A stretch of 50,891 nt of DNA, filler included, from Dirinaria sp. TL-2023a (GCA_051941275.1; 3 parts of 3 records of this genome joined end to end with filler, not necessarily neighbours in it); one strand, 5' to 3'. Shown: positions 4,366 to 33,998, counted from the whole stretch's first letter. Notes: generated by a model from the sequence alone, not told the origin. Made by a program: numbers and translations.

Positions 4366-4788
4366 AGGTAAGGTATGGGGTGAAAAATAGCCTGTAACCC
4401 TAAATTTTACTTGGCATATATTCATATAGGTCTGGGCCAGAGCATTAAGTTCAATTGAGTATCTCTAAAGCCATCAGTAGGCATGGTCTGACCAGCAAAT
4501 CGATTTCTGCCCTGGTCCGCTTGTTCTATAGGGTTGCTAACGCCTCGTACACTTCGACTTACAACACCTCTGAGAAAACTACAAGTTTTTCTCTGCCAGG
4601 TGCGGTGGATGCTCTTGCCCACTGAAGAATATATGCGCTACCCTATGTGCAATTAGACGCCTTATCACAAAGCCCCTGTGCCTCCAGCTGTCAAGCAATA
4701 TACTCGGTAGGCGGCTATTCAGTTGTGAAAGTATACCCGCAGTATCCCGGGAGGCGTACAACCTTTCAAATATTTCACCTGCTCTGCA

Positions 4789-7700
4789 ATGGCTGGGGAA
4801 CCAGAAAGTTTATGGGAGAAGGCCTTTGCCTCTTTGAATGACGAAAACAAGTCGTTAGCCGGTCCTCGCGCACTCGACAAGCGAACTTTTCTCATCGACT
4901 TCACTAAAGTGGTTGAAGAGAAGCGTCTAAATTGTGCAAAGAGGGAGTGGAAATTCATACGCAATGGAAAGGAAATCTCAACCCGCGACATTTTCGGGCG
5001 AATGATTACCTGGATCAGCAAGTTTAAAGAGGTCGGCGACGTAGCCTCCCAATATGATTCTACTCACGCTGCACTTCCTTGGGCCGCAGTCCGTCTTGTT
5101 TTACAGGTGAGATGATTATTACTCACAATCACTAGTCCTTTGCAAGGAGCCTGCTTAGATGACTGTCGCCCCCTAGGCTATAGTGAATGAATATCAAACA
5201 AACGAATCACTGCTTGAAGGATTGGAATATATCACAAGCTTGATAGCTAGGTTTGCAATGGTTGAAGGCTTATATCTGAAAGGGCTTACTGTTGCGAGCA
5301 AACAGTTATCCGATACAATTATTCGCCTCTACAGCGCCATACTGACTTATCTTGCGAAAGCTCATAGGTTCTACTCACGAAATACTGCCGGTGATTTTGT
5401 GGCCCAATTCTGTTTTCCCGTGTAACTGGCTGACACTGCCTCGAAGGACGTTTCGTCAAAGCCGCCACCCAGCCCGTAGAGCTCAGCGTAGGTTCGTACC
5501 TTCAAAAGGTCCATGACGAGGAGACAAGGGTAAACGATCTAGCTCGACTGCTTGATGCCGACTGTACGTCCATTATATTCATTTCCTTAAAGACAGTAAG
5601 CCTACAGTAACATCTATTGTCTCGGATTACTTCAAAGATCGCTGGGCTTTGAGACAGTTTGCTGGACGATAACAAGTCAAGTTTCGTTGAAAAGGCTTCG
5701 TGCTGTAGGATCATGTGTCATCTCGTTATCATGTTTTGTTTTGCCAGGTAGAAATCGTGTCTAGGCGTACTGGCTTGCTCGAATTTCTACTTTCTTCGCC
5801 AGACTCAGAGCTTATTGTGACGCCTCTATCTTCAGATCTCCGGCAAATCTCGTCCTTCATGGAAGAACGGTTTGTGCGCTATGAAAATAAGCTCGATACT
5901 TTAGACCAAGGGATTCAAGGTCTGCAACTTACACTTAACAGTCGAATGTCTCCAATAGTCTCTGCAGAGCAGGTACTTGATTGGATAGCTGCGGTCTTCA
6001 CTAAGGAGGACTATGAGCAAGCATTGGCTGTTCGGACTGAGGGATCGTGCGACTGGATACTCAAACGTCCAGAGTTTGTTTCATGGAGAAGATCGAAGGC
6101 AAGAAGCAAGATGTCAAGAATATTGTGGGTCTATGGATCCGCGGGCTTTGGGAAAAGCATTCTCTGTGCCAGAACGATTCACTATCTGCAAACAGAGCTA
6201 CATAAGAGTGTTCCATATTTCTTCTGTTCTTTTTCCGACGAATCGAAGCGGCAGCCGCTTTCCATTCTCCGCTCGTGGATTGCGCAGCTAGTAATTCAGC
6301 CGGACGGCGCACATGAACTGGCCAAAACAGCGTACTCAAAGCGGCAGTCTCCTAAGGCGACAGAACAAGACCTCTGGCACCTTTTCACAGAAATAAATAC
6401 ACAAGTCAGGAATTCCGTATTCGTGGTTGACGGGTACGACGAATGTACCACCGAGGCTTCTAATTTGAAAACTCATGCAAGTTCGACATCACGAGTCGCA
6501 TTTCTCAAGAAACTTATTAGCTCCACAAAGGCCTCGGGTAGTCAATTACTCCTTGTGAGCCGAGAGGATCATGACATCAGAGAGCAACTTGCAGGCGTGG
6601 GAATAACATCGAAGACTCATGAAATCTTCAGGCTCCGCGTCACGCAGCATGATACTCGGGATGATGTGGCCTCTTTTTCAAAGTCCCTAATGGAACAAAG
6701 ACTACCTAACAAGACAGACGAGCTCAAAAGAGATCTTGCAATGACAGCAGCTGAAAAATGTGATGGTATGTTCCTTTGGGTTCGTTTACTGCACGAAAGG
6801 CTGTCCCCTGGCAAGAATGCTCGACAGCTCCTGAAAATGGTCGTAGACACGCCAGCAGGCTTGAACCAGGCCTATGAGCGGGAGTTGCAGGCGATCAATT
6901 ATCTTTCTCAGGATGAGAGAGACCGGGCGACAAAGATTTTGTGGTGGACATTATATGCTATCCGACCGTTGTGCGTGCAAGAGTTGACTGAAGCTTTGCT
7001 TATTGAACTGGATGACGAACAGGTTTGGTATCCGTTTGAAGAATTGCCTGATGCTTACGATGATTTTTACATTGCGGATCAGCTACGAAGATTATGTGGC
7101 TCCTTGATTGACGTGAGGCCTCGTGAAGGCTCTTCTGGTGTTGCCCAATATACAGTTCAATTTGTCCATTTCTCCGTCAAAGAATACCTCTCAGAAGCGC
7201 TTCAGCAATTCCTACCTTATAAAGTTCCGATGTCTGATGCTGCCAGTATTCATGATGTTCTCGCTCAGTACTGCCTTCAATATCTCTGCTACAATGACTT
7301 CATTCAAGAGTCGGTGTCTACAAAGGAAGAGTTTGACCAAAAGGTTCAAAAATACAATTTTCTCCGATATTCCAGCAGGGTATGGATAGCCCATGCATCT
7401 CGTGCGAACCCGCCGTCGTCAGACTTAGTAGAGCTAAGTAACAAATTGCACGACCGTCCAGGATACAGATGGAGATCGTATTCCGAAGTGCTCTTGAATG
7501 CGAGAAGACTCAAAGATTTTTCCAAATGCTTGGTCGAATACCGAGGGAGCTGGCCGGAGCCCTTGTATCTTGCCAGTGTGACTGGTATTACGGAAACCGT
7601 GAGATATGTCATCGGCAAGACAGCCAATCTAGATGATCAAGCTGGCGCTGAGCGGCGAACTGCGTTGTTTGAGGCCATCTACAGAAGGCATTTCTCAACG

Positions 7701-9239
7701 GCAATGCTTCTCCTAGACCAAGGAGCCGATGTCAACATTAGCACGGCAGATGGATATACCTGTTTACACAAAGCGGCCTCGACAGGTCAACTCGACATTA
7801 TGAGAGCATTGATTGGTAAGGGAGCGTCCATCGACGCCCAAGACATGGACGGTTACACCAGTCTTATTGACGTAATCCAAAAGGCATCTCCAGGTACAGG
7901 GGTTTTACAAAACCAGGTTGACGTGGTCAGAATCTTGATTGATAGAGGAGCGAAAGTGGATGTGCAAGACAAGTCGGGAGAGACCGCTCTGTTCAAAGCT
8001 TCAAGATTGGATCACACTGAGATTGTTACTATTCTGGTAGATAATGGTGCTGATCCAAATATTGCTACAAGAGCAGGACAGAACAGTCTTCTTATTGCCG
8101 CCGTGTCCGGTCATCCAAATGTGGTCGAGATACTCCTTCGGAAAGGAGCGAAAGTGAATGCACAAGATCGGTCGGGATGTACTGCTTTATACAAAGCGGC
8201 AGTCACGAGTCATATCGGGATCATTCGTATTCTGATAGATCATGATGCCAATCCAAATATCGCGGCAAAATCAGGATTAGGTGACACGCCACTGCATGTG
8301 TGTTGCGAAAACGGCAACGAAGAGCTTGCAGGTCTATTCCTTGACCACCGCTGCAATCTCAACGCTACAGATTACGTTGGCAGCACGCCTTTGATACGTA
8401 TGATAAGGCGAGGTCGACGATCTTCAGCTTTGCTATCAAAACTGCTAGTCGCCGGCGCCAAGGTTAACCAACAAGACTTCAGAGGCCAAACCGCTTTGCA
8501 TCACATTGTTCAATCGATTATAACGGACATCCTGAAGCGAATCGCAAGGAAGAAATCGATGGAGACTTCTCAAATGATTGAGGACGCCATAACAGCGCCG
8601 GTTCAGCTCTTTATACAGACTCTACTGCGAAATGGCGCTGATCCCTCACAGCGCGATCAGTACGGCTGGTCAAGCGCTGATTGGGCTTCCAGATACCCGA
8701 CTATACTGCGTCTTCTATTACCGCCAGGTACTATCTACCATCCACTCCATGAGACAGAAGTCACATACATAAGGCGCCATTCATTGAAGCCGGCAATAAA
8801 CCATCTCGTCCGCTTAGAGAACCTTGATGTGCCTGATACTTTGAGGTTCTGGTTCTCGCATGTCGGTCGCCTGTTACTTGCAAGCGGTCACCGCGAGGAC
8901 GCCCGGACAGCTCTCATGGCGTCTATGGTGGCCCGAGAATCCAGGGCGCAGCCCAAGTACACTCCCATCTGCGACATTTGCGCTGCTACTGTCGTCGGAG
9001 ATCGGTACATATGTGAGACCTGTGCCGAGACCGTTCTCTGTGGGGATTGTTTGAAACTGTACATGATGGAGCCGATGGCCCAGCCTGCGAGACTCAGTAT
9101 CATGCTGGGGAGTTGCACCGGTCATGACTTCTTCTACATCTCTGAAGAAGAATACCGCAAACTCCCTCAAGGAATGGTAAACGGGCGAGGAGAAACTAGT
9201 ACCGCATTTGTGAAACGCTTGGGGGAAACCTTTGCATAG
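4789..9239 (+). CDS. NLR-like STAND protein: N-terminal helical domain + NACHT + ankyrin repeats + C-terminal ZZ-type zinc finger; 3 introns (5107-5176, 5391-~5446, ~5563-5835)
   Basis: FKEVGDVASQYDSTHAALPWAAVR (common fungal NLR N-terminus), Walker A GSAGFGKS, Walker B VFVVDGYDEC, GMFLWVRL, FVHFSVKEYL. About 9 ankyrin units (G-T-A/P-L-H/F). CDIC-x9-CETC-x5-CGDC...C-x2-H at 8970-9131. Confidence 0.92.
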
Positions 9240-9824: not shown

Positions 9825-10797
9825 TCATGTCTGACTTCCGTAGACTGTGTTACGACCCTGAACACTAAGTAGTAAGATAGACAACCAAGTCGCTGACTCG
9901 GTTTGGGGTTGGTCTTTTGGTATATCACGGCCGGTGAGCAAAGACTTGAGGTGCGAGATCAGCTGCTCAACATTGCTAGCTCGGGTGCCTCCAGAAGCTT
10001 TGAAATGTCTGGGGAGAATGAGCAGCCGAACCCAGGCGAAATTGTTGCACTGCTTCGCAAGAGGCATTTCGCTGGCCTCGTCATGGTTCCCTTCAAGGTG
10101 AAGGGCCTGTCCTTTGCAGTAGAAGTCGATCTAATGGGTTTGATTAGTCCAGCTCACTTAGCTTCCTGAGTATGTGAGTGGGGAAACATTGATGGAATAG
10201 TGGCAGCGATCGCATTGACGCGTGCTATGACTCAGCAGCATTCTGGATGCAAAGATACCCAGCTAAGGGCAGAGAAATGACAGAAGTAACACAGAGAAGT
10301 GGGTGTTCGGGGTCACTTGACGCATACTATGATTGTGCAACTGAGGCATATTTGAAGCAAAGAGACCAGGGCGAGCCAAGGGCTGAGAAGTGATGGAATT
10401 GACAAAAGGCTCGAACAGGGACTGGGAATGCTTAACTGTAAAGGATCGGAATCCTTGGCGCCTGCGTTGACTCTGGGATCGCTGTAGTCTTTTGGCTTCA
10501 GCTCTAGCCTACAGCTTGCATTTTTCGTCCTGAGGAGAACCCGCATCAGCAATGGAAAGGTATTGGCAGTCTGCACTGGACTTACTTCTGGGCAATGTTG
10601 ACGTTGTAGTCGAAAACCACTGGACCCACGTTGGCATTTGTGGGTCCCTGCCCGCCCTTTTCGAGGGTGGTCCAATTGTCAGCCGGCAAAGGATCAACTC
10701 TTGCGACGGTGAAGGAAAGCAGCGCCCATTTTGCCTTGTAGCTGTATGGCATGGTGGCGGTGGAGGAAGGGCCGCTGATGACGGGCTTTGGAGGCAT
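9825..10797 (-). CDS. Orphan gene A (multi-exon, possibly pseudogenised); diverged paralogue of gene B
   Basis: ATG 10797; clean intron 10585-10530 (GTAAGT..GCTGAT..CAG); last exon 10130-9825 after CTAAT..TAG. Shares ordered motifs with gene B. The middle exon phases could not be reconciled. Confidence 0.55.
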
Positions 10798-10830
10798 CTT
10801 GGAGAAAGGAAGCGGAGGAAGTAGATAAAG

Positions 10831-10976
10831 TCAGAGTCTGTTCGAGGCCGGCGCCCTGGGTTGGGGGGAGGGGGGATGGGAATATCAGAGTCTGCTCGAG
10901 TCAGCGCCCTGGGAGCAATTATACCATTAGGACACGATCAAGTCGATTTACTATGTAGTATAACCACTAAAGAGAA
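10831..10976 (-). promoter_or_regulatory. Upstream cassette of gene A: two ~29-bp motif copies (10831-10860, 10885-10913) plus a 63-bp block shared with 14654-14716
   Basis: The reverse complement of 10885-10976 equals 14654-14745 at 88/92 positions. The cassette ends 34 bp upstream of the gene A ATG. The repeat is seen directly; regulatory function is inferred. Confidence 0.6.
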
Positions 10977-10977
10977 G

Positions 10978-11037
10978 GAAGAAGAAGAAGAAGAAGAAGA
11001 AGAAGAAGAAGAAGAAGAAGAAGAAGAAGAAGAAGAA
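10978..11037 (+). repeat. (GAA)20 microsatellite
   Basis: Perfect GAA run directly abutting the cassette. Confidence 0.97.
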
Positions 11038-11210
11038 AAAGAAAAGAGGGAGCGTGAGTCATGAGAGGCCCGAGATAAGGGGCGGCTACTTTGGCGCGAC
11101 CCACAATTCACCTACATATAAACTGCTCCCACGACGCAAATTCATCTTCTCCTCTTCAGATGTCACTTCGATGATAGACTTGATCTCATTTTGTTTTAAG
11201 TGCATCTCCT

Positions 11211-11345
11211 GGCAGGGCGTTGATTTGATCAAACCTCTGACTCCCCTTTTCCCTTCTCCCCTTTCCCCCACCCAGGGCGTTGACTTGATCAACCCTCTGA
11301 CTCCCCGTCCCCTAACCCTGGGCGCTGGCTTTGAACAGACTCTGA
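11211..11345 (+). promoter_or_regulatory. Three copies of the ~30-bp motif upstream of gene B (11211-11240, 11271-11300, 11316-11345) separated by C/T-rich spacers
   Basis: GGCAGGGCGTTGATTTGATCAAACCTCTGA, CCCAGGGCGTTGACTTGATCAACCCTCTGA and CCCTGGGCGCTGGCTTTGAACAGACTCTGA. GACTTGATC also occurs at 11178, as in the other cassettes. Confidence 0.6.
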
Positions 11346-11499
11346 TTAATCCCTCACACACGATCTTCTGCATCCATTCTTTGAGACACTTCATTGGGCT
11401 GCCCAGATACTGCTCATCGTGATGGAGTCAAGGAAATCCGAGTCGTCATTCTCATTCCATCCTCCAGTTGCTCCTGGTTCAGACCCTCAAAACCCTACG

Positions 11500-13035
11500 A
11501 TGGCTTCCCCCTCTTCTGGTCCGACTCGCAAAGGTACTGGAACTGCCAAGCCACCAAAGGAACGCCTTTGGCCTAAAGTTCGCGTGCAATACGCCCGCTT
11601 GTCATATCGAGACAGTGAAAAGCAAGACTGGAAAATTCTTGAGCGGAGCTACTGGCCAGCAAGAGCGAATCTCGACCTACCTGAGGCGTTCAATGTGGAG
11701 CAGGTAAATTTCACGTCTCAAGGTAAGTTTGCTTGTTTTTTGAGCCATGAGCCAGCTCTGAACGATCATCTCACCTTAATGGCCGGTTCTTCATGAGGTG
11801 TTGCTCCAGTCGAAAATGTATTTTCTGCTGATTAGTATTGCTCTATGATAGGCATTGAAATGAGGCAAGGCGACAAAGAATACAGCCCTCAAGTCACTGA
11901 ACGCAACAGGAAGTTCGTCACAGAGGCGAGCTGTAGCTGGATTCTTCAATTCCAGAAGATGTCGAACATCATACTCAGCGAGTACACGATGGACAATAGG
12001 ACATACGGCGTGATCCGCTTCATATGTGCCGAGCCTCCTGTCAATCGATCTGAGATTGACACTCCTGAAGATATGGAGGAAGCACAGGACGATGAGGTGG
12101 CCGCCGATGTCGACGTCGATCAGATGGAGACTTCGGAAACCAACACGCTTCCAGATCCAAGCTCATTCCCTCTTGCGGCACTGTGCAAGGATGCTAATTC
12201 AGTGGTTGGTAAAGAGTTTCGTCTGGGATTCATGCGCAAGACAGCAAGGCCCAAAGAGAGCTATGCCTTTATATGGCCTGCGGTGGTCCAATACTTAGGA
12301 GGGTTGGGATTCGTGTACAATGCTAAGCAGGAAGGGGAATATAGAAAGCCGTTGGACGCATGGGCAGTGGCGAACAGGGAAAGCCTACAACCATTTAGGC
12401 TCGAGGAGTATCGATCGGAGGATTCGGGGCGCCTCGAATGGCATCTGCGTCCCAAGGAGACTCAGTCAGTATTTGACCTGCTCATTGGAGCCAAAGAAGC
12501 TAGCATTTCACCCAGACAGGCGCCTGTGCCGGCTCCTTGGCCAGTCGCTTCTCTGCCGGCTGTCCCATCGCTCTCTCCTCGGCCGCCTACTTCGTCATTC
12601 GCTCTGCCGCAGGCTGCTTCACCATTTGCTTCTCTGCCGACTGTCCCATCGCTCTCTCCTCGGCCGCCTGTTTCGCCAACCGCCCCGCTGCCGACTCCAT
12701 CATCCGCCGCCCCGCCAACGATCCCCTCAGATACTCCGATGGCGGGTTCTACACCACTCCCAGAACCGTCCACAGAAAAGCGCGGCCGTGAAGAGGAAGG
12801 GGATCGCGTCGCGAATCTGGAAAACGTGGAGGAAACCCTTTATAACGCATGGCAGGATCGCATTGCAGTGATCAATGACATGCGACGAGTGATCGATGAG
12901 ACGCGACGAGTGGCGGACGTGACAAAGGACGCTGAATTAGACGCCAGAGCTGCAGAACAGGAAGCACATCGACGTCATTATGAAGCGTTGAAAGAGCTTC
13001 GCGAGCTCATGAAAGAGGAGAGGCGTAAGAGATAG
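11500..13035 (+). CDS. Orphan gene B: unassigned N-terminal domain, acidic linker, Pro/Ser-rich repeat, C-terminal coiled coil; exons 11500-11722 + 11852-13035 (alternative ATG 11422)
   Basis: Long open frame. The intron GTAAGT..CTGAT..TAG joins the exons in phase (SQ/G/IEMR). No family recognised. Confidence 0.75.
12547..12669 (+). repeat. 42-bp coding direct repeat (12547-12588 / 12628-12669), encoding ASLP[AT]VPSLSPRPP
   Basis: 41/42 identical, 81-bp period. Confidence 0.9.
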
Positions 13036-14196
13036 ATAAGCAGCTATCTACCTATCTAAATACAATTCTCTATTTCCCCCCGACTTCAACCTGTTTCACT
13101 TTCAGGGTCCCTACACTGCTCCCACAACCACGTACTTCTCACTTACTTTATCAATATGTCTCTCTCACGTTTCTTTTTTCTTTCTGTTGGAAATTGAGAT
13201 TTTTGATGACACTGAGGTCATAGAATTGCCAACCTAAACATGCCAAGACGCTAGGTATAAGCGAAATTCCAGCACTTTCTATTATCTTTAACCCTTCAAC
13301 GATTTTGCCTATTTGCATCATGGCGCACTCTGATGGTGAATAAGCTAGTTCCATCGTCACTTCGCTAATAAACCGTTCTTTGACTTGCGATCTCGCATCC
13401 TGCCTGTCAGAGCTAGAAAAAGGGGATATATACGTCATCTATAGCAATTCAAAGTGGTCGAATACCTTATGCATTATTACACGAGTGAGAAAAATGAGGA
13501 ACCTACCTTAGTAGTAGAGACAGTAGGTATGCCAGTAGACTGTGGGGTGGCGCGGAGGCAGTAGCGGGACCCTAGGTATCTTACCTTACCTTTATTGTTG
13601 TACGCCAGTGTAAGTGATATCTGGAGTGGGCCACTACTGCCGCACATGCGCAGCAAATACATATGGCATCGATAATAGCCTCGAGAGAGCACACACAATA
13701 TGAAGTGAAGCATTACAGTATGTACTGACTTCGATGGGTCTGGGCTAGGAAAATCTACAATATGACGCCCCACCCACCCTTGTGTAGCCACGCAAGACTT
13801 TGATAGAATCCTCGCTTTGGATCAACGCCGTTTGTAACTTGCTCTCCTCAAGGTTGTCGACTTTTCTTTTGTGCAATCATTTGGACTTTCAGTTCATGCT
13901 GTTTGCGACGTCAGTCTTGATCGTTGAATCATGAAGGCTCTTTTGCGCTGCTGAACGCCCTGACCTACAAACAGATTTGCTTGTTCCTGCTGTCAGACCC
14001 AAAAATCCATCCAAGCAGGGACAAGGGTATAGGGCATCATCAGGTTGGCCAAGTGCGTTGCGTATTCCAACGGACAATGAAGGATCGACGGTTCTCAGAG
14101 ATTCTCGGGACGACTGCGATGATGCTCAGGGATCTGAACACAAGCGAGAACTATTCGAGCCCTGGAAAACCTTAAGACAAACATGAGGAGGCCTAG

Positions 14197-14291
14197 TCCT
14201 ATAGAGAGTTGAAAGACTGTGAGGAAGTCTAGTCCTAGAGAGTGGCAACTAGAGGCTCGATCCTATAGAGACTTGAACAACTGTGAGGAAG
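14197..14291. repeat. 31-bp direct repeat (14197-14227 / 14261-14291) with a partial copy between
   Basis: TCCTATAGAGA[G/C]TTGAA..ACTGTGAGGAAG, 28/31 identical. Confidence 0.8.
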
Positions 14292-14653
14292 CCCCGCCCT
14301 GAACAACAAATGAGGCACCGTAAGGATGCTTAGTTCTGAAAAGCCTTGAGGCATCTGTGATAGTTCGGAAGCGTGCCACTTATACGACAAGGGGAACACC
14401 CCTAAGACAGCCATGAGGACGTTCAAAGGTTCAATGTAGGTCTAATAAGTAGCCAGTGGTTCACGAAATGTCACATCTAGCATTCGAGAAGGATCACAAG
14501 ATATATTTACATTTGTCACCAACTGAAGCCTCGAATGGCAACAGCAGAGCCATACCAAGAAAGGAACCGGCAGAGCCAGCCTAAGTTCCGAGTAGACGAC
14601 GACGTCAGCGAATACACTATAGACCAACGTAGGTCCCAGAACTTCTCTCCTCT

Positions 14654-14797
14654 TTCTCTTTAGCGGTTATACTACATAGCAAACCGACTTGATCGTGTCC
14701 TAGTGGTATAATTGCTCCCAGGGCGCTGACTCGAGCAGACTCTGACTTTCTCATTCCCCTTCCCCATCCCCAGGGCGCTGACTTGAGCAGACTCTGA
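14654..14797 (+). promoter_or_regulatory. Upstream cassette of gene C: shared 63-bp block plus two motif copies (14717-14745, 14769-14797)
   Basis: CCCAGGGCGCTGACT[C/T]GAGCAGACTCTGA twice; inverted copy of 10831-10976; followed by a CT-rich tract and ATG 14889. Confidence 0.6.
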
Positions 14798-14888
14798 TTT
14801 TCCTTTTCTCCAGTATACTGTACTGCTCTCGATATCGTCCCTTCTCGCTCCTCTCTTGTCCATCATCCCTTCTTCCATCGCAGCCAAC

Positions 14889-16550
14889 ATGCACATGTGG
14901 GAAGAGGCCAAAGAGGAGCGTAGATGGTCACAGCTGGTCCGGCAGCAGCAAGAAGTCGTCAACCGCACCGATGACCCACGAGAGCAAAGGTACTTTCATA
15001 GCCTGGTAAGACAGCTCGAGAATGCCAAGGCCAAGGTCAAAGCTCGAAAAGCCAGACAAGCCAAAGCACGACATCAGCCGCCGCCGCAGCAAAGCTCAGT
15101 CGGTAGGCCAAAACCAGAGCAATCCTCAATATCGGCGCGACCGACAAACAGAGAGGCGAGGGCCATTAAGGCTCGTGAACGAGTCGAGAAATTGCAAGGG
15201 CGGCTCGACGAAGCTCGGGCAGTCACTGCTAGCCGTCAAGAACAAGTTCAAGCTGCCGATTTCTTCAGGCTTGATTTATCAGCCCAGTTCAAGATCCTCG
15301 AGCAGGCAGCAAATGCCGCCAAGAATGTCGCCGACTTGGAGCAAGAACTTGGTCCAGCCAGAGAGCAAGTTGAAAAGACAGAGCGTTATGTTGCATTGGC
15401 TCACCAAAAAGTTCGGCAGCGAGAAGAGGAGAAAGAAGCTGCTGAGGCTGCCGAAGCTGCTGAGCAACAGCGACAAAAGGCTGCCGAGCAAGAAGCAATG
15501 GCACAGATCGAGGCTGATCGAAACACGGCTCTTCAATTAAAGGCCGAGGAAGATGATCTATCGCCCGATGTCGAAGAAGATGTGAACATAAGCCACACAG
15601 ATGCCGAGACTGACCTCAAATCTTGATCAGAAGTTCTCAAGCTCTGTCAAGAGAGTGAGGCGGGCAATGCGGTGGTAGATGATGCCGGTGAATTCACTGC
15701 ACTCCCAGGCACCACGAACCTAGACGACGAAGGAGTCAATCATGCCATAGCTGCTGTGATCGTCGGCATTGCCCAAGAGAATCTTAAGATGGGTATTGCA
15801 TCGGACGAGATGCAAATGCTGAGCCGCTTTCCTCTAGAGTCCCCGATGCCATGTCTCACGTCGCCGAACAACATGGTCATCCCAATCCTGTCGAGTGCAG
15901 CAATCCGCTCATGTGACGAGGAGGCGGTCGACGGCACTCGCAAGGAAGCATCGGAGGTCAACCAGTCATTGGCCACCAACCCAGGCAACAAGGGGGAATG
16001 GGTGGGTGACATCGGACACTGGATCCTGGCTGTCGCCACAAGAGACGACAGCGAAGTTGACCTCCGAATGATGAACAGTCTTCCAGGCGCGGGATCCAAA
16101 TCCGTCTGGCGAGCCATAGCACGCAGCATTGTTCGGAACTGTGGCTGGATGAAGGATACCCGGATCATTTTCCGGGAGGAGGACTAGTCAAGCGTCGCCA
16201 TGCAACAAGCTGGCAACACATGTGGCGTCCATGTGATCCTGAATGCATGGGCAGATATCCTGAAGCTGCAAATCAGCTCCTCAGCTCGTCCTCATGCCAA
16301 GTTCTACGATGAAGCCAAACTCTTGATCAACCGTGCCATGGCTGGCAAGACAACCACGAGGGAGATCCAGGCGTGGCTGTATAGCTCCAAGTACGTTGTT
16401 GGCTCCTACGAGGCTCGCAACGGACAAGTGGCCGCCGATCCAGAACTGGCTGCGATGATGCAGGCCAGGACCGCTCCAATGAACGATCGAAGACTGGGGG
16501 AGTATCTGGACAGCGAAGATGTGGTGCCGAAGAGATCTAGCCGCAGCTAA
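14889..16550 (+). pseudogene. Gene C: coiled-coil + Ulp1/C48-like cysteine protease, interrupted by two in-frame stops
   Basis: ORFs 14856, 15672 and 16200 are one frame broken by TGA 15624-15626 and TAG 16185-16187. The motifs GHWILAV...MMNSL...QQAGNTCGVHV match the HW/DS/Q-x5-CG pattern of clan CE proteases. Confidence 0.7.
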
Positions 16551-16903: not shown

Positions 16904-17003
16904 NNNNNNNNNNNNNNNNNNNNNNNNNNNNNNNNNNNNNNNNNNNNTTAATTAATTAANNNNNNNNNNNNNNNNNNNNNNNNNNNNNNNNNNNNNNNNN
17001 NNN
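16904..17003. other. Artificial contig spacer
   Basis: 44 N + TTAATTAATTAA (stops in all six frames) + 44 N. Confidence 0.98.
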
Positions 17004-20000
17004 GGCATGGCTTGTCGTCTTCCAGGTGGCCTAACGACGCCAGCAGACCTCTAGGAGTTCCTTCTCGCAAAGAAAGACGGTCGATGTCGTGTCCCGGAAT
17101 CGCGCTATAACATCTCCTCATATTACTCAGCGACCCCCAGACCAGGAATGCTCTCGACCGAGTACGGATACTTTCTCGACGAGAGCGTCGATCTAGGAGC
17201 GTTAGATACGTCCTTTTTCTCTTTACCGCGAAGCGAGGTGGAACGAGCCGACCCCCAGCAACGACTTATGTTGGAAGTCGCTCAGGAGGCATTTCAGGAT
17301 GCGGGTATCACTAAGTGGAGAGGAAAGACCATCGGTTGCTACATTGGCAACTTTGGAGAAGACTGGCTTGAAATGTTCGGAAAGGAAACCCAGCCATGGG
17401 GTATACATCGTATTGCTGGTACCGGAGATTGGGCAGTCTCGAATCGTCTCTCGTATGAGTTCGACATTAAAGGACCTAGGCATGTGCTCCTTTGGGGAAA
17501 TGTTGAGACATCCTTTGCTGATGTACCTTTAACAGTATGACGATACGCACGGCTTGTTCTTCTGCGCTGGTAGGACTAAACGAGGCTTGCTCCGCTATCA
17601 GCAGAGGCGACTGCGAAGCCGCTCTTGTTGGCGGGGTCAGTCTAATCTTAGCGCCAGGCATGACAGCTGCCATGCAAGAGCAAGGATTTATCTCGAAGGA
17701 CGGCTCGTGCAAGTCCTTCTCAGCAGAGGCCGATGGGTATGCGCGCGGCGAGGCGGTCACAGCGATTTATATTAAGCCGTTGGATGATGCCATAAGAGAT
17801 GGCAACCCGATCCGAGCCGTCGTCAGAGCCACATCGCACAATTCGGACGGAAAGACGTCAGGGCTATCGCAGCCGAGCACAGACGCACACGAAGCTCTAA
17901 TAAGGAGAGCGTACCAGCTGGGTGGTATCACTGACTATTCAAAAACGGCAATGGTTGAGTGCCACGGCACGGGGACGCCGATCGGTGACCCTATTGAGGC
18001 GAAAGCTGTCGCCCGGGTGTTTGGAGAGAAAGGGGTCTATATCGGATCAGTCAAACCCAACCTCGGGCACACGGAGGCTGCATCAGGCCTTGTGTCTCTC
18101 CTGAAGATGGTCATGGCACTCGAAAATCGCATAATCCCGCCTAACATCAAATTCAAAACTCCGAACCCGAACATACCTTTCGAAGCCGCCAAGCTAACGG
18201 TTCCCCTAGAAGCAACCCCTTGGCCTGATGATAGACTTGAACGCGTCAGCCTAAATTCTTTTGGAATCGGTGGCGCAAACGCTCATGTGATTCTGGAAGC
18301 TGACGCCGCCTACGACGTACCAATAGCTAGTTATGCAATTCCAGAGATTCCGCAGCTTCTATTGTTCTCGGCTAATTGCGCAAAGCCACTCACAAGAATG
18401 ATCGACAATTACAAGCCTTGGGTCGAAAAGAATCAAGACAAAATTGGGGATTTGGCGTATACTTTGGCTTGCAGGAGGGAGCATCTGTCTCACCGCGCCT
18501 TTGCTGTAGTCAACAGTGGGGTGATTGAAAGTGTATCACCTCACGCAAATTTAAAAACCGCGAAGAGGCCGAGCATAATCATGGTGTTTACGGGTCAAGG
18601 AGCACAGTGGCCTCAAATGGGCCGGGAATTAATGCACTCTAGCAAAGTATTCAAGTCCAGCATCCAATCCCTTGATCAATACTTGCAGGGCATTGACGGA
18701 GTCAAGCCTCAGTACTCGATTGAAGAGGAGCTAAGGAAGCCAGCCAGGAAGAGCCGACTGTCATCTGCGGAGCTCTCTCAGCCCCTTTGCACTGCTATTC
18801 AGATCGCACTGGTCGACACTCTAAAAGGTCTAGGGGTTGTGCCAAATGCTGTCGTCGGTCATTCTAGTGGCGAGCTCGCTGGCGCGTACGCTTCTGAGGC
18901 ACTCACGGCTAGAGAGACTATCATCGCCGCCCACCATCGAGGAGCTGTAACAACCAAACAGAGGAGGGCAGGATCTATGGCGGCGATCGGGCTGAGTTGG
19001 GAAGAGACCGAGAAGTATCTTGTCCCCAATGCGACGATTGCCTGCGACAACTCGCCCAAGAGCGTCACAATCTTGGGAGACGTCGAAGCAGTCCAAGCTG
19101 TTATTGCTAGGGTTAAAGAAGCACATCCACAGGCGTTGGCAAGGCCACTCCAGGTAGACAAAGCCTACCATTCCTACCACATGGCCGAGATAGGACAGGA
19201 CTATCTTTCCATGATTGGCCAGGAGGTGTTGGGAAGGCAACCGTCGACACTCTTCTTTTCCAGTGTGACTGGTAAACTCCTGGGACCAAAGCGCCGAATT
19301 GATGCAGAATACTGGCAGAACAATCTGGAATCGCCCGTCAGGTTCCGGGAGGCTGTCACAGCAATCTTGGAGCACGATGTCGCTAAGAATGCAGTCTTTC
19401 TTGAAGTCGGCCCCCACGCGGCGCTGGCAGGACCCCTTAGACAGATCCTCGCCCAATCAGCTTCTTCTGCTCCGTATGTCTCAGCTATGACCCGCCAACA
19501 GAATTGCACTACATCTTTCTTAACAGCGATTGGTAATCTTCAGTCGCTCAACGTCGACATTGATCTTAAAGCTCTGTTTCCAACTGGTTCATGCCTTCCA
19601 GATCTACCCAGATACCCATGGAATCATGAAGGCAGCTACTGGTATGAAACTCGTATCAGCAGTGAGTGGCGCCACCGGAAATACCCTTACCATGATCTTC
19701 TCGGTGCTAAAGTCGCTGAGAGCACCGAAATTGAGCCAATGTGGCGCAATCTGTTGCACATTACAAATGTTCCTTGGATTCGCGACCACAGAGTTGGTGA
19801 AAACATCGTTTTCCCTTTCTGTGGGTATGTTGCCCTAGCAGGCGAGGCTGTAAGACAACTCACCAAAATTGAGGATGGATTCAGTATTCGAAACATCATT
19901 GTCAGTACCGCTCTCATTCTGACTGAAGGTAAACCGACAGAAATGATGACCATGTTCCGACCACATCGCCTGACAAATTCTCTTGATAGCGATTGGTGGG

Positions 20001-23000
20001 AGTTCACTGTTTCCGCCTACAGTGGCCGCAACTGGGTAAAGCACTGCACAGGCGAAGTCTCGGCGCTGTCTTCGAAGGCTTCATCGGGCCAAGACCCAAA
20101 CGCTCTTCCTCGAGAGCTCAATGTTAGAAAGTGGTACGAAAATATGGCCAAGGGAGGTCTGGATCTGGGACCAAGTTTTCAAACACTAGACACGATGGCG
20201 ACCTCAAGTGGTTCAGAGAATCGTGCGGTTGGAAACGTTATCAACGGCAGGCAGGGAGATGAAGCTAACTATCACATTCACCCTACCGTGCTTGATGCAA
20301 CTCTTCAGTTGATGGGTGCGGCCGCAGTCAATGGCTATGCCCACAAAACAAGAAATTGGCTTCCAACAAGCATAGAGAGTTTTACTGTCTACAGATGCTC
20401 TTCAAACATGGTCACCAGCGTTTCCGCGAAGCTGTCGAGCAATCTTTCGATCGTTGGCGAAGGCAGTTGCATATCGGAGGGCAAGACAGTGGTTAAAGGC
20501 TCCGGCATAAAGTCTTCACTTGCAGACGGCGCCGGTGTAGTTGACATTCTCGATCCGCATGCATCGGCGCGGTGTGAATGGAGTCCTGACATCAACTTTC
20601 TTGATGTCACAGAGCTCATCCACGCGCCAGTGGGCCGTACTGACTACTTGAGACTCCTAGAAGAGTTAGGAGATATCTGTTTGCTCTTGTCTAAGCGGCG
20701 AATCTCTGTATCCGAGACAAGGTCACATCCACCCCATCTGCAGAAGTACATAATCTGGCTCACTTCTCGAGTGGAATCGGCAGCCGACATCCTGGCGTTG
20801 AATTTGAAGAGCCTCGATAATGAAAGTCTTTTAGCTCGAATCGATGATATAATGACCCGCCTGTCTGAAACTCCGGCGGCTACGGTCGCCAGTGCCATTC
20901 ACCAAGTCTACACGAAAATGGATCTCATCCTGTCAGGCCAGGACTTAGAAGATATTCTCCCAGAAACACATCAAATAAATCTCTATGGATTTATTGGACA
21001 GCTAGATCGGAGCCAATACATTCGCACCCTGAGTCACTCCAAGCCCAACCTGCGAATCCTCGAAATTGGAACTGGAAAGGGCTCGTTACACCGTAAAATT
21101 CTCAATGAATTGAAACGTCCGGATGGGGAGATACTCTGCTCCAAGTACACCTTGACTTCACCAGGTTACATTTTCGCGAAAGATGAAGAACAGTTGTTTC
21201 CCGACATGGAATATCTAAACCTAGAGATAACCCAAGATCCCTTCGAACAGGGATTCGAGGGCCGTCAGTATGATCTTATTGTTGCATGCAACGTCTTCCG
21301 GAAGACAATGAACCTCCAGATGACCCTGGATAACGTAAAGAAGCTTCTGCGTCCCGACGGCCGTTTGCTCTTGCAAGAAATTTGCTCGTCATCCAATTGG
21401 ATCACTTATGTGCTAGGAGTCCTGCCATCTTGGTGATTGGGGACCAGGGACAGCGAAATTGATGGGTTATACATTGGCAAAGAGGAGTGGAAGTCTCAGC
21501 TTGCCGCTGCAGGATTGGGCATTAGCGAGGATGTGGTTCTCGACGCCGAAGAGCCTCATCAACTCACAACAACCTTGGTCGTCAGACAAGCCTCATTTCT
21601 GAAGGCACCCGTGAAGCATATCACCGCTCTTTGCAACGAACAGGGGCCCGTGATTACGCAAGTATTGAGCCAGCTGGAAAGAGTCGGTTACCAGATCACC
21701 GTGTGCAAGTTGGAAGAAGTTCCGCCGGCTGGACAGGACATTATTTCCCTCTTGGATGTAGGGAAACCCTTTTTCGAGAATATGAATATTGAAGAAGCAC
21801 GGTACTCGACTTTTAAGACATTCATTCATTCCCTCCGCGCCCAGGGGATTTTCTGGGTAACTCATCTCACCGAGGTTAGCTGCCGCGATCCCCGATATGC
21901 TCAAGTTCTCGGCTTCTCTAGATGTATCCGCTCTGAGCAGCTAGCCGACTTAGCGACCTGCCAGGTCGATAGTTTCGATGACCCCAAGTCCATCGACAAA
22001 ATTACGCGGGCTCTTTCCAGGTTCCAACTCCGCCAAGGTGATGAAACGCTGAATCCAGACTTTGAATGGGCCATCTTCAACGACCGCATTCAGCTCCCGC
22101 GCTTTCACCCTTTCGTGCTGAGCGATGAGCTCTTGGTGTCAGAGCTGAATGAGAAGGCCACGCTGGATGTTCGCACGCCTGGGAGGGTCAACAGTCTTCA
22201 TTGGGCACGACATTCGCGAGAGAATCTCAAGGCTGACGAAGTTGAGGTTCAGGTACACTCGGCCGGATTGAATTTTAGAGCAAGTCGACTCCAAATCACT
22301 AGTCTCCATTCTCTGCCTGGAATTTCCGCAATTCCCTCTTTCGAGTACTGATATGCCATTTGTAGGACATTTTGGTCGCACTAGGCATAGTTGAGCTTCC
22401 CGTTCGTATGTTCGGGCTTGAAGCAGCTGGTATTGTCTCCCGTGTAGGAACAGATGTAAGCCCAAATGAGCTCAAGGTCGGTGATCGAGTGTTTTGCTTG
22501 TGCAGACACGATGGCCTTTCAACCCATATCATTACTCCAGCAGTTACCTGCGTTCGAATCCCTGACCAACTCAGCTTCGACCATGCGGGAACGATGCTTA
22601 TACCATATGTTACGGTGCTACATTCATTCATGAATGTCGGCCATGTTGCCAAAGGAAATGTAAGTGAGACAATACAACGTTCACCTATCCCGTGTAACCG
22701 TGCTAAAGATTCGCTCTATTTAGTCTATACTAATACATAGCGCATGTGGTGGAGTCGGCCTAGCCGCTATTCAGGTCGCGCAGATGCTGGAGACAGAAGT
22801 TTATGTTACAGTCGGCAGTAAGCAGAAGGTCGATTACTTGACTGATCACTACCACATACCGAGAAATCGAATCTTCAACTCTCGTGACAAATCTTTTGTG
22901 GAGGACGTGAAGCGCGAAACGGGAGGCCGCGGCATGGACTTTATCCTCAATTCTCTCTCTGGTGAACTTTTGCACGCTACGTGGACCTGCGTCGCCGAAT

Positions 23001-24605
23001 TTGGGACATTGCTCGAGATCGGAAAGCGAGATCTCATTGGTAATGGGAGACTCGACATGAAGCCCTTCCTGGCTAACCGCAGCTATTGCTGTGTGGATAT
23101 CGACGGGCTTTGGAAGAGGACTCATGTCTTTAGAAGGTCAGTCCCGTATCCAGATAGCATCGAGCCATATTCATTGATCTGGTTCATTTATCTGACATAA
23201 CCAAAACAACAGTCTGATGCTTGCAACCTTGGAGCACTACAGCAAAGGACATATTTCCCCTCTACCCATGGAAATCTTCACCGCAGCCCAAACACAGGAT
23301 GCATTCCGAATGATGGAAAAGGGACAACATATCGGCAGAGTCGGGATTTCGATCCAGCACCTTGCGGAGGGGAACGACCAGGCATTTGAAACCACCAAGA
23401 GAACCCGACCGATCGCCTTCAATGGATCTGCATCGTACCTCTTAGTCGGCGGTCTTGGAGGTATCGGCCGCGCGCTATCCACATGGATGGTAGATCATGG
23501 CGCCCGCGAGCTGATCTACATATCCCGGAGTGCAGGCATTAGCAGCCAAGACGACACCTTCGTCAGGGAGCTCCAGAGCATGGAATGTGACGTAAAACTC
23601 ATACGTGGAGACGTGACGAAGCTCGATGACGTAGAGAGGGCTATCGCAGCAGCCACACATCCATTGAAAGGAATTTTACAGATGTCTATGGTGCTCGCCA
23701 ACGAAAACTTCTCCAAAATGTCTTTCGACGAATGGGTGGCATCGGTAAAGCCCAAAGTTCAGGGGACCTGGAACCTTCACAACGCTTCGGTAGCTGCAGG
23801 GGTCCATCTGGATTTCTTTGTACTGTTCAGCTCGCTGTCAGGCATTGTTGGACAACCTGGCCAAGCGAATTATGCCAGTGCAAACACCTTTTTGGAAGGG
23901 TTTGCTCGGTACCGTAACGGCTTAGGTCTTGCAGCATCGGTGGCTAGCATTGGCGCCGTCAAGGACATTGGATACATATCTGAGCACCATGGCCTGATGG
24001 GCAAAATGCAGAAGACCGGCTTCAAACCTGTTTCGGAGCAGGAGCTAATGGACGCAATGGCGTTGTCTATGATGGTCCACAACAAGCCTACCGGGGAAAC
24101 GCTTGCCGGCCCGTCATCGGACAATTTTCGATCCGTGGATACCAAGTCTTTTATGCTCGGACTAGCTTCGCGGATTCCGTTGAATGATCCCAGTAATTAC
24201 ATCGTATGGAAGAAAGATCGTCGCATGGCCGCATACCACATTAAAACGATGAGCAGCGCTGTAGCAGCCTCCACGGACACATTTAAGACATACTTGAAAA
24301 GCGTTCAGGCGGACCCTGCTATTCTCAAGTCGCCAGAAGCTTCGAAACTCTTCGCGCTCGAAATCGGCAGAAAGCTCTTCGAGCTGCTTCTCAAGCCTCA
24401 GGACGAGCTGAATACCACTTGGCCGTTGGTCGATCTGGGCCTGGACTCATTAGTGGCGCTCGAGCTGCGTGCATGGCTCAAGCAGGTTTTCTCCTTCGAC
24501 ATTCCCATGCTCGAGATGTTAGGGATGGGGTCTCTCGATATACTTGGGAAATATGCCGCAGACGAGCTGCACAGAATTGTAACTGGGAATAGCGATGGTA
24601 GTTGA
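17004..24605 (+). pseudogene. Highly reducing iterative type I PKS (KS-AT-DH-degenerate cMT-ER-KR-ACP), 5'-truncated by the contig edge, two nonsense codons; introns 17480-17535, 22280-22365, 22660-22723, 23137-23212
   Basis: GMACRLPGG, TACSS, HGTGT, GHTEAASG (KS); GHSSG, AYHS (AT); HDLLG, WIRDHRV (DH); LEIGTG (MT); LIHSACGGVG (ER); GGLGGIG, NYASAN (KR); GLDSL (ACP). TAG 17052-17054 and TGA 21434-21436 both fall at conserved Trp positions. Confidence 0.9.
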
Positions 24606-33898: not shown

Positions 33899-33998
33899 NN
33901 NNNNNNNNNNNNNNNNNNNNNNNNNNNNNNNNNNNNNNNNNNTTAATTAATTAANNNNNNNNNNNNNNNNNNNNNNNNNNNNNNNNNNNNNNNNNNNN
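33899..33998. other. Artificial contig spacer
   Basis: 44 N + TTAATTAATTAA + 44 N, identical to the first spacer. Confidence 0.98.

What the first reader, a model, noticed from the sequence alone, without database searches (positions are those of the whole stretch)
10831..14797. A shared ~29-bp tandem motif cassette sits upstream of all three genes of an orphan island
Seen: seven copies of a motif of about CCCAGGGCGYTGRCTYGANCARACTCTGA. Two lie on the minus strand before gene A (10831-10860, 10885-10913), three on the plus strand before gene B (11211-11345) and two before gene C (14717-14745, 14769-14797). Every copy points toward the downstream ATG and copies are separated by C/T-rich spacers. 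A GACTTGATC box lies ~25 bp upstream of the first copy in each set. The A and C cassettes share 92 bp at 88/92 identity although the two genes are unrelated. The motif core holds short palindromes (CTCGAG, TTGATCAA). I did not see it elsewhere in the window. Inference: a portable, element-specific promoter that co-regulates a private gene set, as expected for a large mobile element or endogenised virus with its own regulator or recombination sites. I do not recognise it as a described fungal cis-element. The TIR alternative fits worse, because identity is highest at the inner ends, no TSD is visible and the genes read outward.
Basis: partly seen in the sequence, partly recalled or inferred. 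Interest (0 to 1): 0.85.

Follow-up and report, generated by a model that had tools for sequence, protein, structure and literature searches.

The report
Copied tandem-repeat promoter module, lichen fungus
Three neighbouring, unrelated genes of a lichen fungus each sit behind two or three tandem copies of the same 28-letter DNA motif, most likely a locally copied promoter module of a kind already known in fungi; its function is untested.

Summary
The A and C cassettes form a 162-column inverted duplication at 86% identity. The B cassette shares only the motif units, at 73-74%.

The context needs correcting. The window is three contigs joined by linkers, so the "island" is seen only on a 16.9-kb contig of a lichen-fungus genome assembled from a metagenome, and the PKS is not shown to be adjacent. 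Gene A is an unannotated 71-codon frame. Gene B has no relative. Gene C has one relative in another lichen fungus and is cut short by a stop codon.

Best reading (about 0.45): a promoter/5'-leader module copied locally onto three genes, similar to the tandem-repeat promoter of Magnaporthe PWL2 (PMC8035637).

Nothing supports a mobile element or endogenised virus: codon usage is host-like, no transposase, recombinase or viral gene was found, and there is no target-site duplication.

Genome-wide copy number and expression could not be tested, because no genome or usable RNA run was available.

The parts
10827..10987 (-). Cassette A (one arm of the inverted duplication). It holds the proximal copy A1 (10831-10860), the distal copy A2 (10885-10913), a TATAAT-like box (10918-10923) and a GACTTGATC box (10936-10944).
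10582..10797 (-). Gene A: a 71-codon frame (P0006) with its ATG at 10797, 34 nt from copy A1. Its TAA stop lies inside a perfect GTAAGT, so this may be only a first exon.
   Evidence: translation; codon score +0.20 per codon, the highest among the short frames; not in the protein collection; no family found.
10975..11035 (.). (GAA)n microsatellite lying between the divergent A and B cassettes, at the inner edge of arm A.
   Evidence: sequence read
11177..11345 (+). Cassette B. It holds a GACTTGATC box (11177-11185) and copies B1 (11213-11240), B2 (11273-11300) and B3 (11318-11345). A TATAAA lies further upstream at 11117.
   Evidence: 73.8% to C and 72.6% to A over 84 columns.
11422..13035 (+). 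Gene B. Exon 1 is 11422-11722, the intron 11723-11851 and exon 2 11852-13035. The public annotation starts at the second Met (P0005, 468 aa). The protein has a Pro/Ser-rich repeat and a long C-terminal helix.
   Evidence: it finds only itself; only the C-terminal helix is modelled with confidence.
14642..14801 (+). Cassette C (the other arm). It holds a GACTTGATC box (14686-14694), a TATAAT-like box (14707-14712), the distal copy C1 (14717-14745) and the proximal copy C2 (14769-14797).
14889..16550 (+). Gene C: one reading frame with two in-frame stops. The TGA at 15624 lies in a plausible 60-nt intron (15582-15641) that the public model uses. The TAG at 16185 is the annotated stop, but similarity to the relative continues past it.
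   Evidence: 118/278 identical, with the TAG aligned to a W in the relative.

Best explanation
The cassettes are copies of one promoter/5'-leader module. The module consists of a core box (GACTTGATC), a TATAAT-like box in A and C, and then two or three tandem units of 45-60 bp. Each unit is a conserved ~28-nt bipartite motif (CCCAGGGCG, about 13 variable bases, then CTCTGA) followed by a C/T-rich tract.

Local duplication placed the module directly in front of three adjacent, unrelated, lineage-restricted genes of a lichen-forming ascomycete: in inverted orientation between A and C, and in direct orientation and older for B. The inferred mechanism is that one sequence-specific DNA-binding factor recognises the repeated motif close to the transcription start, so the three genes are switched together and copy number tunes strength.

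Shown: the repeats, their placement and orientation, the duplication, and its uneven conservation. Inferred: promoter activity, the binding factor and co-regulation.
For: All 7 copies lie in the three 5' regions, with none elsewhere in 50.9 kb and 0.00 expected by chance.

The last copy of each cassette ends 34, 77 and 92 nt before the ATG of a frame with host-like codon usage: +0.20 per codon for A and 0.02-0.19 for the exons of B and C, against 0.10-0.14 for control genes.

The sense strand is 64-67% pyrimidine. No ATG occurs in the 497 nt from first copy to start codon, against 3.9 expected (P 0.013).

In the A/C duplication the longest perfect run, 42 nt, is the TATAAT-like box plus the distal motif. 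The distal motif is 29/29 identical while the spacer is 16/25. Between the older B cassette and A/C, only the motif units and the box are still recognisable.

There is a precedent in print. The PWL2 promoter of Magnaporthe oryzae has three 48-49-bp tandem repeats at -331 to -182. They are required for expression and vary in copy number between strains. Their 12-bp motif recurs in the same orientation upstream of other, partly co-expressed genes (PMC8035637; abstract and sections 9 and 12 read).
Against: There are no expression data. The two RNA runs I laid gave 0 reads, which is no test.

No genome was held, so copies elsewhere are unknown.

No transcription-factor gene lies on the 16.9-kb contig.

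If the TATAAT box is functional, the motif copies lie at or after the transcription start, which is unusual for an activator site.

The 42-nt perfect run is only about P 0.05 on my rough estimate. The ATG depletion is inflated because the copies are not independent of each other. Orientation alone is a 1-in-8 event.

Gene A is unannotated. Gene C carries a premature stop relative to its only relative, so part of the 'regulon' may be decaying.
Confidence: 0.45

Rival explanations
1. The cassettes are pieces of a dispersed repeat family, such as a non-autonomous transposon or an LTR fragment with its own tandem repeats, that tends to land in or be kept in 5' regions. Any promoter role would be incidental or co-opted, as with mimp elements in front of Fusarium SIX genes.
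For: The A and C copies share about 160 bp including non-motif sequence, which is more than a binding site needs. Earlier notes on this genome report many transposon relics (unchecked by me). The mimp precedent is in print: the abstract of PMC3599309 says a mimp is always present in those promoters, yet promoter deletions revealed no direct function in expression.
Against: I found no terminal inverted repeats within a cassette, no target-site duplication, and no TG...CA ends (sequence read). Homology fades into C/T-rich sequence instead of stopping sharply. There is no copy in the other 34 kb of the window and none in the scan's other indexed windows. There is no match in metagenome or viral contigs.
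Confidence: 0.18
2. This is neutral local duplication: replication slippage and a small inverted duplication in a fast-changing region next to an NLR gene, with no regulatory meaning.
For: The region is rich in other repeats: a (GAA)n tract, a 27/81-nt repeat inside gene B and a 64-nt tandem at 14188-14300. Gene C is truncated. Most A/C differences are transitions, 13 of 17.
Against: Three separate cassettes all end just upstream of start codons in the sense orientation. Conservation within the arms is uneven and favours the motif and the TATA-like box. The old B cassette keeps the motif but not the flanks.
Confidence: 0.12
3. The element works at the RNA level, with the cassettes transcribed as leaders. 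Each unit ends in CTCTGA[C/T], which fits the fungal branch-point form CTRAY (recalled from memory). In most cases a pyrimidine tract and then CAG follow, so the array could be a set of alternative 3' splice sites of a 5'-UTR intron, or binding sites for an RNA-binding protein.
For: All 7 of 7 units end in CTGAC or CTGAT. A pyrimidine tract followed by CAG comes after A2, B1, C1 and C2; after C2 the CAG is at 14811-14813. ATGs are absent from the leaders. A GTAGGT lies at 14629-14634, just upstream of arm C.
Against: The leader shows no RNA structure signal: z-score +0.51, and 136 of 200 shuffles fold at least as well. Rfam gives nothing: the single match has E 0.28 and 23.7 bits against a gathering score of 79. 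The most conserved part, CCCAGGGCG, is not explained by splice signals. The B2-to-B3 junction has CTG, not CAG. No upstream exon is known.
Confidence: 0.1
4. One reading: the motif is the private promoter (or recombination site) of a large mobile element or endogenised virus that carries its own regulator.
For: A long, oriented motif in front of every gene of a set resembles promoters of giant viruses or linear plasmids (recalled from memory). B has no relatives and C has one. The contig ends about 350 bp after gene C, so a larger element could continue unseen.
Against: Codon usage of B and C is host-like and GC content is ordinary. No transposase, recombinase or viral hallmark was found among the 28 scanned frames of the contig; the best such hit is a hAT dimerisation domain at E 0.058, 13.6 bits against a cut-off of 21.4. 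There are no PHROGs hits and no relatives in viral contigs. Ordinary fungal genes (SDR, FAD oxidase, NLR) lie directly to the left.
Confidence: 0.1
5. The two arms are terminal inverted repeats of a 3,975-bp DNA transposon (10827-14801) that carries gene B.
For: A 162-column inverted repeat flanks a 3.65-kb segment.
Against: The outer ends are the least conserved part: proximal motif 25/30 and spacer 16/25, against 68/75 and 29/29 further in. The flanks GTAGAT and CCTTTT form no target-site duplication. Gene B matches no transposase family. The interior holds a third cassette in the same register with gene B.
Confidence: 0.04

Closest known systems
Tandem repeats in the PWL2 effector promoter of Magnaporthe oryzae (PMC8035637; abstract and sections 9 and 12 read)
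   Same: Both have two or three imperfect tandem units of about 48-60 bp within a few hundred bases of the ATG. Copy number is variable. A short conserved motif inside each unit recurs in the same orientation upstream of other, unrelated genes.
   Different: In PWL2 the function is shown by deletion and mutagenesis; here nothing is tested. The PWL2 motif is 12 bp with a different sequence. Here about 28 nt are conserved, the units lie closer to the ATG (-209 to -34), and a whole ~160-bp module has been copied between adjacent genes at 86% identity.
mimp (miniature Impala) elements in the promoters of Fusarium oxysporum SIX effector genes (PMC3599309; abstract read)
   Same: A portable, recognisable DNA block lies upstream of unrelated lineage-specific genes and can be used to predict them.
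   Different: As I recall, mimps have terminal inverted repeats and many dispersed copies. The cassettes here have no such ends and no copies elsewhere in what I could search.
Binding sites of cluster-specific regulators in fungal gene clusters, for example AflR-type sites (recalled, not checked here)
   Same: Neighbouring unrelated genes share an oriented upstream motif, presumably for co-regulation.
   Different: Those sites are short (6-12 bp) and are not embedded in duplicated flanks. A regulator gene normally lies in the cluster, and none is seen on this contig.
Promoter tandem duplications such as TR34/TR46 of Aspergillus fumigatus cyp51A (recalled, not checked here)
   Same: Tandem duplication of a promoter segment that holds a regulator binding site.
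   Different: That is a single gene under drug selection, whereas here three genes share the module.

Membership tests
Tandem-repeat cis-regulatory promoter module (PWL2 type) | Two or more imperfect tandem units within a few hundred bp upstream of the ATG, in the sense orientation | tested here: met
   There are 2, 3 and 2 units with start-to-start spacing of 54, 60/45 and 52 nt, lying 34-209 nt from the ATGs.
Tandem-repeat cis-regulatory promoter module (PWL2 type) | The same motif occurs upstream of other genes in the same orientation | tested here: met
   3 of 3 neighbouring frames carry it. Genome-wide occurrence is unknown.
Tandem-repeat cis-regulatory promoter module (PWL2 type) | The repeats are required for, or modulate, transcription | not testable with these tools
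   No RNA holder was listed. The two RNA runs laid gave 0 reads, which is no test.
TIR DNA transposon or MITE (mimp-like) | Terminal inverted repeats, best conserved at the outer tips | tested here: not met
   For the 10827-14801 unit the outer parts are 25/30 and 16/25 identical, against 68/75 and 29/29 for the inner parts. No inverted ends exist within a single cassette.
TIR DNA transposon or MITE (mimp-like) | Target-site duplication flanking the element | tested here: not met
   The flanks do not repeat (sequence read).
TIR DNA transposon or MITE (mimp-like) | Many dispersed copies in the genome | not testable with these tools
   No genome is held. There are 0 further copies in the window, 0 in the scan's other indexed windows and 0 in metagenome or viral contigs.
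Virus- or mobile-element-specific promoter set | Hallmark genes of a virus or mobile element (capsid, polymerase, integrase, transposase, tyrosine recombinase) in the same unit | tested here: not met
   Pfam on the 28 scanned frames of the contig, plus genes A, B and C, gives none above cut-off. PHROGs gives none. Only 16.9 kb is visible.
Virus- or mobile-element-specific promoter set | Base composition or codon usage distinct from the host | tested here: not met
   The codon scores of B and C equal those of control genes. GC is 0.45-0.58, against 0.41-0.53 for the rest of the contig.
LTR retrotransposon | Direct long terminal repeats flanking gag/pol | tested here: not met
   The well-conserved pair (A/C) is inverted. 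The B/C direct pair is only 74% identical over 84 columns. No RT, integrase or gag domain was found.
Ulp1/C48-like cysteine peptidase (gene C, side question) | Significant match to the family profile, or to the fold | tested here: not met
   Pfam at E up to 10 returns no family for P0001, and at E up to 1 only two unrelated sub-threshold hits for P0004. The PDB profile search finds nothing relevant. The model has pLDDT 36, so I ran no fold search. The His...Asp/Asn...Gln...Cys order I saw is a resemblance recalled from memory only.

The most novel reading that the evidence does not exclude
The cassettes are the private promoter system of a still-unseen mobile or virus-derived element in a lichen fungus. 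In this reading, every gene of the element, whatever its origin, receives the same TATA-plus-tandem-motif module and is read by an element-encoded factor. Genes A, B and C would be the left edge of that element, which runs off the contig.
Probability: 0.08. Interest if true: 0.75.

Novelty: new member of a known kind. Interest (0 to 1): 0.3.

Why it matters
If the module is a working promoter, it gives a ready-made, compact regulatory part from a lichen-forming fungus, a group with almost no characterised cis-elements. It would also be a clear example of regulatory wiring spreading by copying about 160 bp of promoter onto unrelated neighbours instead of by point mutation. The 28-nt motif would then be a handle for finding the rest of the regulon and its factor. 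If it is only a repeat relic, it is of local interest.

Tried and rejected
Whole genome: none is held for this window.

Sequencing runs: no RNA holder was listed. Runs X1 and X2 hold only 6-7 read-length contigs at 11918-14630, none of them over a cassette. RNA runs X4 and X7 gave 0 reads, which is no test.

Motif in public collections: 0 matches in metagenome contigs and 0 in viral contigs.

Relatives of gene C in metagenome contigs: 315 pattern matches, none confirmed.

Relatives of C, B and A in viral contigs: 34, 4 and 12 pattern matches, none confirmed.

The scan's own index: no look-alike of the cassette or the locus and no notes near this place. The word search gave only unrelated bacterial and viral cases.

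Gene A homology, a slip of mine: and 36/44 used 10583/10586-10799(-), which is the wrong reading frame because the ATG is at 10797. In the right frame (P0006) I ran only these:
- Pfam: best hit PsaX, E 0.18.
- Exact look-up in the protein collection: absent.
- ESM Atlas: recognition below threshold, hits are bacterial hypotheticals.
- PDB: none.
- PHROGs and NCBIfam: none.
- Viral loci: none.

Structure predictions: gene B gave mean pLDDT 46.6 and the gene C domain of the relative gave 36.1. Both are too poor for fold searches, so I ran none.

ESM Atlas for gene B: no usable hit.

Paralogy between B and C, suggested by a 35-nt match at similar spacing (repeat family D5): rejected, with BLASTP E 2.9 and 0.29.

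RNA structure and Rfam: nothing.

Bacterial-type promoter scan: 3 sites against 3.7 expected, so chance.

Yeast Xbp1 (CTCGA-type site), recalled as a possible binder of the motif core: the one paper I opened did not give the consensus, so this stays an unverified recollection.

Literature searches for a described equivalent in lichen fungi found none. They did turn up the PWL2 paper.
Full report
WHAT IS THERE

A loose pattern, C[AT]GGGCG, 10-18 bases, CTCTGA, matches seven times in the 50,891-base window on both strands:
- two on the minus strand at 10831-10858 and 10885-10911;
- three on the plus strand at 11213-11240, 11273-11300 and 11318-11345;
- two on the plus strand at 14719-14745 and 14771-14797.

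There are no matches anywhere else. The other four differ by a one-base indel or by more substitutions (alignment).

The sub-motifs are equally confined. Exact CCCAGGGCG occurs five times and exact CAGACTCTGA five times, all in the cassettes. Exact GACTTGATC occurs four times: three are the 'boxes' 22-27 nt before the first copy of each set, and the fourth lies inside copy B2. The box is therefore the core of the motif itself, probably a worn extra copy.

The sense strand of all three leaders is 64-67% pyrimidine.

THE DUPLICATION

BLASTN aligns 10827-10987 with 14642-14801 in inverted orientation: 162 columns, 86.4% identity, E 2e-47.

Conservation along the arms is uneven:
- upstream block 68/75;
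- distal motif copy 29/29;
- spacer 16/25;
- proximal copy 25/30.

Of the 17 substitutions, 13 are transitions and 4 are transversions.

The longest perfect run is 42 nt (14704-14745). It consists of GGTATAATTGCT, which occurs exactly twice in the window, once in A and once in C, followed by the distal motif.

Cassette B matches C at 73.8% and A at 72.6% over 84 columns, in the motif units only. It is therefore an older or faster-changing copy. B has a TATAAA about 96 nt upstream of its first copy instead of an adjacent TATAAT.

CONTEXT, CORRECTED

The window is not one molecule. N44-TTAATTAATTAA-N44 linkers at 16904-17003 and 33899-33998 join three contigs. The protein search reports a 16,903-base contig for genes B and C, from a metagenome-assembled genome named by its source as Dirinaria sp. 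TL-2023a. The reducing polyketide synthase that begins at 17004 is therefore not shown to be a neighbour.

On the 16.9-kb contig, the genes to the left are a short-chain dehydrogenase, an FAD-binding oxidase fragment and a NACHT-ankyrin NLR. None of the 28 further frames I scanned hits a transposase, recombinase or viral family above cut-off. The best such hit is a hAT dimerisation domain at E 0.058 and 13.6 bits, against a cut-off of 21.4.

THE THREE GENES

Gene A is a 71-codon frame with its ATG at 10797 (P0006).
- It has the best codon score of any short frame in the region, +0.20 per codon.
- It is not in the protein collection, so it is unannotated.
- It has no family match.
- Its TAA stop lies inside a perfect GTAAGT, followed 56 nt later by a CTGAT...CAG (read). 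It may therefore be only a first exon.

I made a slip with this gene. My first searches (and the single full-library job) used a start at 10799 and so ran in the wrong frame. Those blanks mean nothing.

Gene B has two exons, 11422-11722 and 11852-13035. In two word-indexed searches it finds only itself: 1 hit among 8000 scored candidates, and 1 among 1205. Only its C-terminal long helix is modelled with confidence.

Gene C is one frame from 14889 to 16550 with two in-frame stops.
- The TGA at 15624 lies in a plausible 60-nt intron that the public model uses.
- The TAG at 16185 is the annotated stop.
- The only relative is a 946-aa protein of Villophora microphyllina, with 118/278 identical residues (42%). 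It aligns straight through that TAG, which pairs with a tryptophan.

Gene C is therefore truncated in this assembly, and it is not an orphan.

B and C are not paralogues (E 2.9). Both score like host genes on codon usage: 0.02-0.19 per codon, against 0.10-0.14 for control genes. GC content is unremarkable.

HOW IT MOST LIKELY WORKS

The cassettes end 34, 77 and 92 nt before the start codons. Those start codons have a purine at -3 (read).

The 497 nt between first copy and ATG hold no ATG, against 3.9 expected (P 0.013). This figure is inflated because the copies are related to each other.

A TATA-like box sits immediately upstream of the first motif copy in A and C. C/T-rich tracts follow each copy. 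From general knowledge, this is the usual look of core promoters and leaders in filamentous fungi.

The part best preserved between A and C is the TATA-like box plus a motif copy. The part preserved between B and A/C is the motif.

I therefore read the cassette as a promoter/5'-leader module whose repeated bipartite motif is the site of a sequence-specific factor acting near the transcription start, copied locally onto three genes so that they respond together. I put this at about 0.45.

It has a close precedent in print. The PWL2 promoter of Magnaporthe oryzae holds three 48-49-bp tandem repeats at -331 to -182. They are required for expression and vary in copy number among strains. They contain a 12-bp motif that recurs in the same orientation upstream of other, partly co-expressed genes (PMC8035637; abstract and sections 9 and 12 read).

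RIVALS

- Dispersed repeat or transposon fragment, 0.18. This cannot be excluded without the genome, but there are no terminal inverted repeats, no target-site duplication and no sharp ends. The mimp case (PMC3599309, abstract read) shows that such an association can exist without any demonstrated promoter function.
- Neutral local duplication, 0.12. The region is rich in other repeats, but three-fold placement and uneven conservation argue against it.
- RNA-level element, 0.10. Every unit ends in CTGAC or CTGAT, which looks like a branch point (consensus recalled from memory), and most are followed by a pyrimidine tract and CAG. However, the leader shows no structure signal (z +0.51), Rfam has nothing, and CCCAGGGCG is left unexplained.
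No hallmark genes, host-like codon usage and no viral relatives, but the contig ends about 350 bp after gene C.
- Terminal inverted repeats of a 4-kb transposon carrying gene B, 0.04. The outer ends are the least conserved and there is no target-site duplication.

WHAT COULD NOT BE DONE

- No genome is held.
- The only runs holding the locus carry a few read-length contigs, none of them over a cassette. The two RNA runs I laid had no reads from this organism.
- The motif and the proteins have no matches in metagenome or viral contigs.
- The DNA around the Villophora relative could not be fetched.
- Both structure models were too poor to search with.

VERDICT

The mobile-element or virus half is unsupported.

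As it stands this is a new example of a known kind of fungal promoter architecture. Its one unusual feature is that the whole module has been copied between adjacent unrelated genes. My literature searches found no description of such an element in lichen fungi.

Noticed in passing
window 16904-17003 and 33899-33998: N44-TTAATTAATTAA-N44 linkers show that the window is three contigs joined artificially. Neighbourhood across these points, for example island to PKS, is not real evidence of linkage.
   Followed up: yes
window 16185-16187: The TAG that ends the annotated gene C aligns with a tryptophan in the only relative, and similarity continues for about 115 further codons to 16550. This is either a premature stop (decaying gene) or an assembly error. 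The residue order His...Asn/Asp...Gln...Cys reminded me of Ulp1-type peptidases, but no profile supports that.
   Followed up: partly
window 10530-10585 (minus strand): The stop codon of the 71-codon gene A lies inside a perfect GTAAGT. A CTGAT branch-like site and a CAG follow, giving a candidate 56-nt intron. The next frame has a poor codon score, so the true gene model is open.
   Followed up: partly
window 10975-11035: A (GAA)n microsatellite of about 20 units lies exactly between the divergent A and B cassettes. The inner end of arm C is also CTT-rich.
   Followed up: no
window 12528-12689: A coding tandem repeat (27/81-nt period, 60-81% identity) inside gene B encodes a Pro/Ser-rich repeated segment.
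   Followed up: no
window 14188-14300: A 64-nt tandem duplication (78% identity) lies in the 1.6-kb non-coding stretch between gene B and cassette C. One run (X2) has a depth-88 contig from some other source touching 14243-14276.
   Followed up: no
window 4729-9239: A NACHT-ankyrin NLR with NACHT_N/DUF7708-type N-terminal exons and a weak ZZ-finger hit at its C-terminus lies directly left of the three genes.
   Followed up: no
window 17004-24605: A highly reducing polyketide synthase (KS-AT-DH-MT-KR-ACP) starts truncated at the first base of the second contig.
   Followed up: no
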